A stretch of DNA of 64,000 nt from Escherichia phage SR02. Numbering within the stretch: the stretch's first letter is position 1; each line of letters begins with the position of its first letter. Below, piece by piece: positions 57,626 to 58,210 of the stretch. Below the pieces are notes generated by a model. The model did not search any database, had not been told where the DNA came from, and worked only from the letters and a program-made list of their open reading frames with translations. A program made the position numbers and the translations under genes. Location: sequence record OQ870566.1. One strand, 5' to 3'.

Positions 57626-57770
57626 GTGTAGGGTTGATCTACCTTTTTTAGGGAGTGCTCAAGGAAAGGCACTAGCCACTACGTTGGAGTGGTATCAGGA
57701 CCAGTACACAGAATGTGCTGCTAATCACAATGGATTGTTAGAAGCCCTTAAAGAGCGTGGAATAGAGTGA
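57510..57770 (+). CDS. candidate o-spanin (Rz1-like) lipoprotein, overlapping the previous gene in another frame
   Basis: Signal peptide with lipobox (FIMSALVMSMSAC); Pro-containing mature part with Cys residues; overlapping arrangement typical of Rz/Rz1. Confidence 0.4.
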   Translation: MRKLNQFFIMSALVMSMSACSTSDNSRQSMPLPTNLKAECRVDLPFLGSAQGKALATTLEWYQDQYTECAANHNGLLEALKERGIE

Positions 57771-58210
57771 TGGCTATTGTTTTCGAAGATAAAGCCAATG
57801 TGTTCACAGTGGACGCTCAAACAGTAACTTGCACAGTAAACCTAGTAGGTGTAATGGGTGCAGGAGTAGCCAAGGAGTATAAAAGAAGATACCCTGAAGC
57901 TTTTGAAAAGTATAAGGTTGCTTGCGACTCTGGATTCCAGATAGGACAACTTCTCCTACAGAGGTTGAATGATGGGAGACTAGGACTGTGTTTTCCAACT
58001 AAGAAGCATTGGAGAAATGGTTCTGAGGTAGAGTGGATAGAGCAAGGTTTACAAAAGCTATTACTTACCTACAAAGATAAGGGAATCACCTCTCTAGCCA
58101 TAACACCTCTTGGTTGCGGCAATGGGGGACTAGATTACCAATCTCAGGTAAGACCTATAATGTTTAAATATCTAAATCAGATGGACATACCTGTCTATAT
58201 CTGTTTATAA
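57767..58210 (+). CDS. macrodomain protein (DarG-like ADP-ribose binding/hydrolase fold)
   Basis: [24 protein letters not shown] and [11 protein letters not shown]...[14 protein letters not shown] match macrodomain Gly-rich loops; 147 aa. Confidence 0.65.

What the first reader, a model, noticed from the sequence alone, without database searches (positions are those of the whole stretch)
57767..58210. Stand-alone DarG-like macrodomain: candidate counter-defence against ADP-ribosylating systems
The 147-aa protein has the macrodomain loops ([14 protein letters not shown]...; [14 protein letters not shown]) and the FPTKKHWR box I associate with DarG-type macrodomains, which remove ADP-ribose from thymidine in ssDNA. 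A phage copy without a toxin partner would be a plausible antidote to DarT-like or other ADP-ribosyltransferase defences. It sits next to the phage sigma factor and replication genes.
Basis: partly seen in the sequence, partly recalled or inferred. Interest (0 to 1): 0.75.

Follow-up and report, generated by a model that had tools for sequence, protein, structure and literature searches.

The report
Orphan DarG-type macrodomain in a kuravirus
This phiEco32-like coliphage carries a small stand-alone enzyme closely resembling the antitoxin half of the bacterial DarTG2 defence system, most likely used to strip ADP-ribose off phage DNA; phage proteins of this kind (AdfM) were shown experimentally in 2025-2026, so this is a good but no longer novel call.

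Summary
Window 57770-58210 (+) encodes a 146-aa macrodomain, the orthologue of phiEco32 gp37, annotated "Appr-1-p processing enzyme family". All three quoted motifs are present.

It is specifically DarG-type:
- PADLOC DarG E=2e-45 and NCBIfam antitoxin_DarG E=3e-42.
- Best PDB sequence and fold hits are DarG macrodomains (5m3e, TM 0.94, RMSD 1.4 Å).
- The catalytic Asn and Lys (N24, K78) are invariant in 58 homologues.

It is not a full DarG. It matches only the macrodomain third of the DarG models, it scores below the NCBIfam cut-off, and it has no C-terminal DarT-binding domain. No DarT or other ART was detected in the phage.

Bacterial relatives at 42-52% identity sit directly beside DarT genes. 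The protein is 40% identical to PhiKZ gp104 (AdfM), which removes DarT2 ADP-ribose from DNA and protects that phage (Cell Rep 2026). T4 Tk.4 was independently named AdfM.

The gene is an accessory 463-bp cassette, found in 43 phage records against 98 for the adjacent sigma gene. It lies in the middle (replication) gene cluster.

Verdict: a probable anti-DarTG2 orphan antitoxin, untested in kuraviruses. It is a new member of a known kind, of modest interest.

The parts
57770..58210 (+). Macrodomain gene (146 aa from the ATG; an alternative GTG lies at 57767). Orthologue of phiEco32 gp37. The catalytic Asn24 codon is 57839-57841 and the Lys78 codon is 58001-58003.
   Evidence: ORF and translation. 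Pfam Macro. PADLOC DarG E=2.4e-45. NCBIfam DarG E=2.6e-42. PDB DarG hits. AF2 pLDDT 95.2. Invariant N24/K78.
57768..57774 (+). Left copy of the 7-nt direct repeat TGATGGC bounding the accessory cassette. It overlaps the o-spanin stop and the macrodomain start.
   Evidence: Sequence. Alignment with macro-less IMEP8 shows the indel runs exactly from the ATGGC of the macro start to the ATGGC of the sigma start.
58231..58237 (+). Right copy of the direct repeat TGATGGC, at the sigma-gene start, 463 bp from the left copy.
58182..58211 (+). Sigma70-like promoter TGGACA-18-TATAAT (11/12) across the 3' end of the macrodomain gene, upstream of the sigma gene. This is a consensus match only.
   Evidence: It corresponds to the sigma70 promoter predicted bioinformatically 'within gene 37' of phiEco32 (PMC8948821). 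There is no equivalent in macro-less IMEP8.
56403..56411 (+). Exact match to the phiEco32 gp36-dependent middle/late promoter element TAATGTATA, 60 bp upstream of the gene-40 orthologue. It is the likely source of the transcript that reaches the macrodomain gene.
   Evidence: phiEco32 gene 40 lies behind an experimentally mapped gp36 promoter (PMC8948821).
57239..57256 (+). Terminator-like hairpin plus T-run after the gene-40 orthologue. Read-through would be needed for P40 transcripts to reach the macrodomain gene.
   Evidence: Annotated as a terminator in phage Paul.
57251..57770 (+). Context: overlapping i-spanin (57251-57625) and o-spanin (about 57507-57770) genes immediately upstream.
   Evidence: PHROG 1152 and 2425. 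Paul annotation.
58230..58877 (+). Context: phage RNA polymerase sigma factor (gp36 orthologue) immediately downstream.
   Evidence: PHROG 1740 E=6e-46. phiEco32 annotation.
58874..59266 (+). Context: SLOG/YAcAr-like protein (gp35 orthologue). It is not coupled to the macrodomain gene.
   Evidence: Pfam PF10686 E=5e-6, below the cut-off. PHROG 289. Present in 83 phage records, including macro-less IMEP8.

Best explanation
The gene encodes an orphan, DarG2-type ADP-ribosyl glycohydrolase, an AdfM-like 'anti-DarT factor'. It is expressed with the middle, DNA-replication genes. It would bind the ADP-ribose that a host DarT2 toxin attaches to thymidine in single-stranded phage DNA and hydrolyse the base-ribose bond using the conserved Asn24/Lys78 site, so that replication (and packaging) can proceed. 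It lacks the C-terminal DarT-binding domain of bacterial DarG, so it can act only by enzymatic reversal and not by sequestering the toxin. Shown here: the fold, the subfamily, the catalytic residues, the orphan status, the accessory distribution, and homology both to DarT-linked antitoxins and to an experimentally validated phage AdfM. Inferred: the enzymatic activity of this protein, its DNA-thymidine substrate, and the protective phenotype.
For: DarG-specific sequence matches: PADLOC DarG E=2.4e-45, NCBIfam antitoxin_DarG E=2.6e-42, and PDB 5m3i/7omu/5m31 at E=8e-27 to 6e-25 against 0.03 for TARG1. Structure: AF2 model pLDDT 95.2; the four best Foldseek hits are all DarG macrodomains, with TM 0.87-0.94 and RMSD 1.4 Å to 5m3e. 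Active site: N24 and K78 align with Taq N22/K80 and PhiKZ N23/K78 and are invariant in 58 homologues, as are both Gly-rich loops. The PhiKZ N23A mutant was used as the catalytic mutant in the AdfM study's de-ribosylation assays. Homology to a validated protein: 40% identity, E=1e-35, to PhiKZ gp104/AdfM, which removes DarT2 ADP-ribose from DNA and protects against DarTG2. Toxin-linked relatives: P0049 (52%), P0061 (49%), P0100 (42%) and a Klebsiella plasmid macrodomain (45%, E=7e-38) all lie directly beside Pfam DarT genes. Orphan status: no DarT or ART detected in the window or in the rest of phiEco32. Typical anti-defence behaviour: the macro gene is found in 43 phage records against 98 for the adjacent sigma gene. 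It is cleanly absent in IMEP8 and replaced by another small gene in Bas87. An 80%-identical copy sits in an unrelated Chaseviridae phage. Host relevance: DarTG2 is an active anti-phage system in E. coli, for example against T5. The gene lies in the middle-gene cluster downstream of a gp36-type promoter.
Against: No experiment exists for any kuravirus macrodomain, and no paper links kuraviruses with DarTG. More than half of the related phages lack the gene, so it is dispensable. A virus-wide survey argued that most phage macrodomains act on soluble ADP-ribose derivatives rather than on macromolecular adducts. DarG-type enzymes also act on uracil-linked ADP-ribose in RNA and dU-DNA, so the substrate need not be thymidine in DNA. 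Middle rather than early expression would leave the first minutes of infection unprotected. The terminator-like hairpin upstream makes the transcription route uncertain.
Confidence: 0.75

Rival explanations
1. The enzyme processes soluble ADP-ribose derivatives (ADPr-1''-phosphate, O-acetyl-ADPr, or NAD+-derived immune signals or toxins), possibly together with the nearby SLOG protein gp35. This is the original 'Appr-1-p processing / phosphatase' annotation.
For: The historic annotation and PHROG 335 'phosphatase'. The 2022 survey proposes that phage Macro, SLOG and NADAR domains co-occur and mostly target diffusible ADPr derivatives. A SLOG/YAcAr-like gene lies two genes downstream.
Against: The protein belongs to the DarG/TARG1-like class with the catalytic Lys, not to the MacroD/Poa1p class. 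Poa1p and ADPr-1''-P phosphatases score only E about 0.9 in sequence and rank below DarG and TARG1 in fold. Its close relatives are DarT-linked. SLOG and macro are not coupled: the SLOG gene is in 83 phage records and the macro gene in 43, IMEP8 has SLOG without macro, and the sigma gene separates the two.
Confidence: 0.1
2. It reverses ADP-ribosylation of RNA or protein by some other host transferase, for example uracil-ADPr on RNA or another ART toxin, rather than DarT2 marks on DNA.
For: Taq DarG and TARG1-like macrodomains remove uracil-linked ADP-ribose from ssRNA and dU-ssDNA. TARG1, the next-best structural relative, also acts on proteins (established knowledge).
Against: Taq DarG is less efficient on RNA-U than on T-ADPr. 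The DarT-linked relatives and the validated AdfM homologue point to DNA. No bacterial anti-phage uracil-RNA ART came up in the papers I read.
Confidence: 0.1
3. It is the immunity or eraser partner for an ADP-ribosyltransferase that the phage itself encodes, limiting self-damage or resetting host modifications.
For: Some phage-like contigs carrying a 55%-identical macrodomain also carry an ART-PolyVal gene about 2 kb away. Streptomyces and Gordonia phage homologues are annotated 'ADP-ribosyltransferase'.
Against: No ART or DarT domain appears in the Pfam results for the 117 window ORFs, though only the top 25 of 34 families were listed for the second half. tblastn with DarT and ART-PolyVal against the window gave nothing below E=0.3. 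The only weak hit, ORF 32888-33505, belongs to the amidoligase cluster. The structural region of phiEco32 outside the window has no ART either.
Confidence: 0.03

Closest known systems
AdfM of Pseudomonas phage PhiKZ (gp104), anti-DarT factor macro (Morgan et al., Cell Rep 2026, PMC13309987)
   Same: A phage-encoded, stand-alone DarG2-type macrodomain of about 150 aa. It is 40% identical over 139 residues (E=1e-35). It has the same catalytic Asn and Lys and the same Gly-rich loops, and it has no DarT-binding domain and no toxin partner.
   Different: PhiKZ AdfM is imported into the chimallivirus phage nucleus by PicA and has a 9-residue insertion before the second Gly loop. The kuravirus is a 77-kb podovirus with no phage nucleus. 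Its gene is a small accessory cassette between the spanin and sigma genes. Its activity is untested.
DarG2 antitoxin of the DarTG2 toxin-antitoxin / phage-defence system (T. aquaticus, M. tuberculosis; PDB 5m3e, 5m3i, 7omu)
   Same: The macrodomain is the same subfamily: 39-41% identity, TM 0.91-0.94, with the catalytic N22/K80 equivalents conserved.
   Different: It lacks the C-terminal DarT-binding domain, covering only profile positions 5-144 of 338, and scores 145 bits against the 250-bit equivalog cut-off. No adjacent darT gene. It is encoded by a virus rather than a bacterial TA operon.
Short, macrodomain-only DarG partners of DarT in bacteria and plasmids (e.g. Klebsiella quasipneumoniae plasmid NZ_AP021957; metagenomic P0049, P0061, P0100)
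   Same: 42-52% identical, 173-225 aa, essentially macrodomain only. They are closer to the phage protein than the textbook DarGs are.
   Different: They sit directly beside, and often overlap, a Pfam DarT gene. The phage gene is an orphan.
T4 Tk.4, also named AdfM (HIDEN-SEQ preprint, 10.1101/2025.11.20.689424)
   Same: A stand-alone coliphage macrodomain of about 155 aa that is needed for resistance to E. coli DarTG2.
   Different: A different macrodomain class. It shares only 18-24% identity (E=5e-4), lacks the FPTKK catalytic lysine, and has its best PDB relatives in BT1257 and Poa1p rather than DarG.
AdfN (T4 30.3 and other phage NADAR proteins), orphan DarG1-like antitoxins (PMC11825919)
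   Same: The same strategy: the phage carries the enzymatic half of a DarTG antitoxin without the toxin.
   Different: An unrelated fold (NADAR). It is specific for guanine-ADPr made by DarT1 and is inactive against DarTG2.

Membership tests
Macrodomain superfamily (Pfam PF01661) | Significant match to the Macro profile above the curated gathering score | tested here: met
   41.4 bits against a cut-off of 22, E=1.5e-10, residues 23-126.
Macrodomain superfamily (Pfam PF01661) | Three-layer alpha/beta/alpha macro fold | tested here: met
   AF2 model pLDDT 95.2, pTM 0.89. 187 PDB macrodomain-type hits at E<=0.001.
DarG-type (TARG1-like) macrodomain subfamily | Closest sequence and structure relatives are DarG macrodomains rather than other macro classes | tested here: met
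   PDB phmmer gives DarG at 8e-27 to 6e-25 and TARG1 at 0.03. The four best Foldseek hits are DarG, TM 0.87-0.94. PADLOC DarG E=2.4e-45.
DarG-type (TARG1-like) macrodomain subfamily | Catalytic lysine (Taq K80) and substrate-positioning asparagine (Taq N22) | tested here: met
   K78 and N24 align with them and are invariant in 58 homologues. The residue roles are taken from PMC13309987.
DarG-type (TARG1-like) macrodomain subfamily | Hydrolysis of thymidine-linked ADP-ribose on ssDNA | not testable with these tools
   This needs a biochemical assay.
DarG antitoxin of DarTG2 (NCBIfam NF048014 equivalog) | Full-length match reaching the curated cut-off | tested here: not met
   145.3 bits against a cut-off of 250. 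Only profile positions 5-144 of 338 are covered.
DarG antitoxin of DarTG2 (NCBIfam NF048014 equivalog) | C-terminal DarT-binding domain | tested here: not met
   The protein is 146 aa and ends with the macrodomain. The PADLOC match covers 6-142 of 329.
DarG antitoxin of DarTG2 (NCBIfam NF048014 equivalog) | Adjacent darT toxin gene (operon) | tested here: not met
   The neighbours are the o-spanin and the sigma factor. No DarT or ART was found in the window or in the rest of phiEco32.
AdfM, PhiKZ gp104 type (phage orphan DarG2-like anti-DarT factor) | Phage-encoded stand-alone macrodomain homologous to PhiKZ gp104, with the catalytic residues intact | tested here: met
   40% identity, E=1e-35. 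N23/K78 of gp104 align with N24/K78. The window is a kuravirus genome.
AdfM, PhiKZ gp104 type (phage orphan DarG2-like anti-DarT factor) | Removes DarT2-made ADP-ribose from DNA and protects the phage from DarTG2 | not testable with these tools
   No published test for any kuravirus.
AdfM, T4 Tk.4 type | Sequence membership in the Tk.4 macrodomain lineage | tested here: not met
   24% identity over 42 aa, E=5e-4. 18% identity in the multiple alignment, and Tk.4 lacks the catalytic Lys.

The most novel reading that the evidence does not exclude
The 463-bp cassette may do two things at once. It would bring an anti-DarTG2 enzyme, and through the sigma70-like promoter in its last 30 bp it would give the phage sigma-factor gene its own host-RNAP promoter. 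Gain or loss of the cassette by recombination at the TGATGGC repeats would then change both the defence range and the timing of the phage's transcriptional switch. Separately, the kuravirus enzyme might have a wider substrate range (T- and U-linked ADPr on DNA and RNA) than the chimallivirus AdfM.
Probability: 0.15. Interest if true: 0.5.

Novelty: new member of a known kind. Interest (0 to 1): 0.3.

Why it matters
If confirmed, it extends the DarG2-type AdfM counter-defence from nucleus-forming jumbo phages to small E. coli podoviruses that are being developed for therapy. It also gives a functional name to a gene that many kuravirus records label 'phosphatase', 'Appr-1-p processing' or 'hypothetical'. 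The natural presence/absence polymorphism among near-identical kuraviruses offers a ready-made test of how much DarTG2 shapes coliphage host range. The concept itself is already established, so the gain is incremental.

Tried and rejected
- **Phage-encoded ART partner.** I scanned 117 window ORFs against Pfam (for the second half only the top 25 of 34 families were listed). I ran tblastn with a DarT and an ART-PolyVal protein. I also scanned the phiEco32 structural proteins that lie outside the window. Nothing was found.
- **ORF 32888-33505.** This weak tblastn hit (E=0.31) was followed up. It has no ART similarity and no PDB relative, and it lies in the COOH-NH2 ligase/amidoligase cluster. 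Rejected.
- **Functional coupling with the SLOG gene gp35.** Rejected on distribution: the SLOG gene is in 83 phage records and the macro gene in 43, and IMEP8 has SLOG without macro.
- **Spread by an adjacent homing endonuclease.** In SU10 the extra HNH sits between gene 40 and the spanins, not next to the cassette. Rejected.
- **Equivalence with T4 Tk.4/AdfM.** Rejected; it is a different macrodomain class.
- **Literature on kuravirus and DarTG.** Nothing was found.
- **NJ tree.** Made without support values, so it only places the protein within the DarG-type family. It does not resolve whether kuraviruses and chimalliviruses acquired the gene independently.

Full report
**1. Observation.**
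The window is a phiEco32-like podovirus (Kuravirus, Gordonclarkvirinae); the 3.8-kb region around the finding is 95% identical to phiEco32. An ORF runs 57767(GTG)/57770(ATG)..58210 on the + strand. It is the orthologue of phiEco32 gp37, annotated since 2008 as "Appr-1-p processing enzyme family". Other annotators start it at the ATG, where TGATG overlaps the o-spanin stop. The stated neighbours are correct: the sigma factor gp36 lies immediately downstream, then a SLOG-like protein, dNMP kinase and exonuclease. The Rz/Rz1 spanins lie immediately upstream.

**2. What it is.**
It is a macrodomain (Pfam PF01661, 41.4 bits against a cut-off of 22), and specifically a DarG-type one.
- The PADLOC DarG model matches at E=2.4e-45 and NCBIfam antitoxin_DarG at E=2.6e-42.
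- The best PDB sequence hits are the DarG macrodomains of M. tuberculosis, Thermosipho and T. aquaticus (E=8e-27 to 6e-25). TARG1 scores 0.03 and Poa1p-type phosphatases about 0.9.
- An AlphaFold2 model built from 58 homologues is confident (pLDDT 95.2, pTM 0.89). Its four best Foldseek hits are all DarG macrodomains (5m3e: TM 0.94, RMSD 1.4 Å), ahead of TARG1.
- Asn24 and Lys78 align with Taq DarG N22/K80 and PhiKZ gp104 N23/K78. They are invariant across the 58 homologues, as are both glycine-rich loops.

**3. What it is not.**
It is not a complete DarG antitoxin. Both DarG models match only over their first 140 or so positions of 329-338. The NCBIfam score (145 bits) is below the equivalog cut-off (250). 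The protein ends with the macrodomain, so the C-terminal DarT-binding domain is absent.

It has no toxin partner.
- No ART or DarT family appears in the Pfam results for the 117 window ORFs, though for the second half only the top 25 of 34 families were listed.
- tblastn with a DarT and an ART-PolyVal protein found nothing below E=0.3.
- The one weak hit turned out to be part of the known amidoligase cluster.
- The roughly 13 kb of phiEco32 not covered by the window is structural and has no ART.

**4. Relatives.**
All 120 best database homologues are short, 118-247 aa. Sampling their genomic contexts gave a mixed picture.
- Beside a Pfam DarT gene: P0049 (52% identity), P0061 (49%) and P0100 (42%).
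- On a Klebsiella ColE1-type plasmid: a DarT gene (E=6e-42) followed by a macrodomain gene 45% identical to the window protein (E=7e-38).
- Orphans: one on a bacterial chromosome and others on phage-like contigs.

So the phage protein belongs to a lineage that includes genuine DarT antitoxins made of the macrodomain alone. These are closer to it than the textbook Taq and Mtb DarG (39-41%).

tblastn finds homologues in 275 phage records (Pseudomonas, Erwinia, Escherichia, Salmonella and Serratia phages lead). The hits listed below 60% identity are mostly genomes of 220-320 kb, including PhiKZ gp104.

**5. Comparison with what is known.**
- PhiKZ gp104 is 40% identical to the window protein (E=1e-35). 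In April 2026 it was published as AdfM, "anti-DarT factor macro". It removes DarT2-made ADP-ribose from DNA in vitro. Phages lacking it are restricted by DarTG2.
- A November 2025 preprint independently named T4 Tk.4 AdfM after a transposon screen on DarTG2. Tk.4 is a different macrodomain class: 18-24% identity, no catalytic lysine, and best PDB relatives BT1257 and Poa1p.
- The orphan-antitoxin strategy was shown earlier for NADAR proteins (AdfN) against DarTG1.
- I found no paper that mentions the kuravirus macrodomain's function or tests kuraviruses against DarTG. The BASEL phenotyping panel lacks DarTG, and its anti-DarTG predictions list only T-even adfA.

**6. Genomic behaviour.**
The gene is accessory.
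- The adjacent sigma gene is found in 98 phage records (GenBank/RefSeq duplicates included), but the macrodomain gene in only 43.
- In IMEP8 the o-spanin stop overlaps the sigma start directly. Alignment shows a clean 463-bp indel bounded in this window by TGATGGC at 57768-57774 and 58231-58237.
- In the more distant Bas87 the same slot holds a different 75-aa gene.
- An 80%-identical copy sits in the early region of an unrelated Chaseviridae myovirus, next to its SSB gene.

Patchy distribution, a variable slot and cross-family transfer are typical of counter-defence genes (inference).

**7. Expression.**
An exact copy of the phiEco32 gp36-dependent promoter element TAATGTATA lies at 56403-56411, 60 bp upstream of the gene-40 orthologue. 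This matches the experimentally mapped P40 middle promoter. A terminator-like hairpin follows gene 40 (57239-57256), so read-through is needed and the route is uncertain. The gene lies in the middle cluster with the replication genes. That fits a role in protecting replicating ssDNA (inference).

**8. Mechanism and confidence.**
The most likely role is an AdfM-like orphan antitoxin. It would hydrolyse thymidine-linked ADP-ribose placed on phage ssDNA by host DarT2. It would act purely enzymatically, because the toxin-binding domain is missing. I put about 0.95 on it being an active DarG-type ADP-ribosyl glycohydrolase and about 0.75 on anti-DarTG2 being its biological role.

The rivals are:
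- **Soluble ADPr derivatives.** This is the view of the 2022 survey, but the subfamily and the DarT-linked relatives argue against it, and the SLOG gene is not coupled to this one.
- **RNA or other substrates.** DarG-type enzymes also remove uracil-ADPr.
- **A phage ART partner.** No ART was found.

**9. Verdict.**
The kind is now experimentally established, though, and the gene has long been annotated as a macrodomain. It is a new, untested member of a known kind, and its interest is modest (0.3).

Noticed in passing
window 58182-58211 (+): A sigma70-like promoter (TGGACA-18-TATAAT, 11/12) sits in the last 30 bp of the macrodomain cassette, just upstream of the phage sigma gene. Macro-less IMEP8 has no equivalent site. 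Gain or loss of the cassette might therefore alter how the sigma gene is first transcribed.
   Followed up: partly
window 57768-57774 and 58231-58237: A 7-nt direct repeat TGATGGC bounds the 463-bp macrodomain cassette exactly. IMEP8 has a single copy of the junction, which suggests gain or loss by short-homology recombination.
   Followed up: yes
window 58874-59266 (+): The gp35 orthologue is a SLOG/YAcAr-like protein (Pfam PF10686 E=5e-6, below the cut-off; annotated 'GTP-binding'). This class is predicted to bind or process NAD+/ADPr-derived nucleotides. Its function is unknown. It is more widespread than the macrodomain gene (83 phage records against 43).
   Followed up: partly
L004 5004-5444 (Escherichia phage vB_EcoM_DE15, Chaseviridae): An 80%-identical copy of the macrodomain gene lies in an unrelated myovirus, among small early genes next to the SSB gene. 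This indicates horizontal transfer between coliphage families.
   Followed up: partly
L018 884-2357 (Klebsiella quasipneumoniae plasmid NZ_AP021957): An 8.6-kb ColE1-type plasmid carries a DarT gene (PF14487, E=6e-42) and a 225-aa macrodomain gene as an operon. The macrodomain is 45% identical to the phage protein. This looks like a compact enterobacterial DarTG2-like module.
   Followed up: partly
L007 1414-1830 (-), also L008 and L009: Phage-like metagenomic contigs with a 55%-identical orphan macrodomain also carry an ART-PolyVal ADP-ribosyltransferase gene about 2 kb away on the opposite strand.
   Followed up: no
L015 2211-4004 (+): A 597-aa protein combines an N6/N4 DNA methylase domain with a partial match to the DarT1-associated NADAR antitoxin family (PF22397, E=7e-8). 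It lies directly upstream of, and overlaps, a DarG-type macrodomain gene (P0030) on a 286-kb contig.
   Followed up: no
window 29898-34605 (+): This is the known phiEco32 COOH-NH2 ligase / amidoligase cluster. It includes two proteins with no assigned function: 31108-32079 (PHROG 13102) and 32888-33505 (PHROG 4877, with no Pfam or PDB match). A whole-window Pfam scan also found GATase and GGACT domains, whose positions I did not map.
   Followed up: partly
window-wide (Pfam scan of ORFs 32888-63946; positions not mapped): The phage encodes ThyX, a dCTP-deaminase-like protein and a protein with an NAD+-binding DNA-ligase N-terminal domain (Nlig-Ia). The BASEL paper speculates that Gordonclarkvirinae DNA may be modified, for example by dU replacing dT. 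The presence of ThyX argues for normal thymidine, the DarT2 target.
   Followed up: no
window 57251-57770 (+): The i-spanin and o-spanin genes sit in the middle-gene cluster next to the sigma gene. In phiEco32 the holin and endolysin genes lie elsewhere, among the late genes (gp16, gp17).
   Followed up: no
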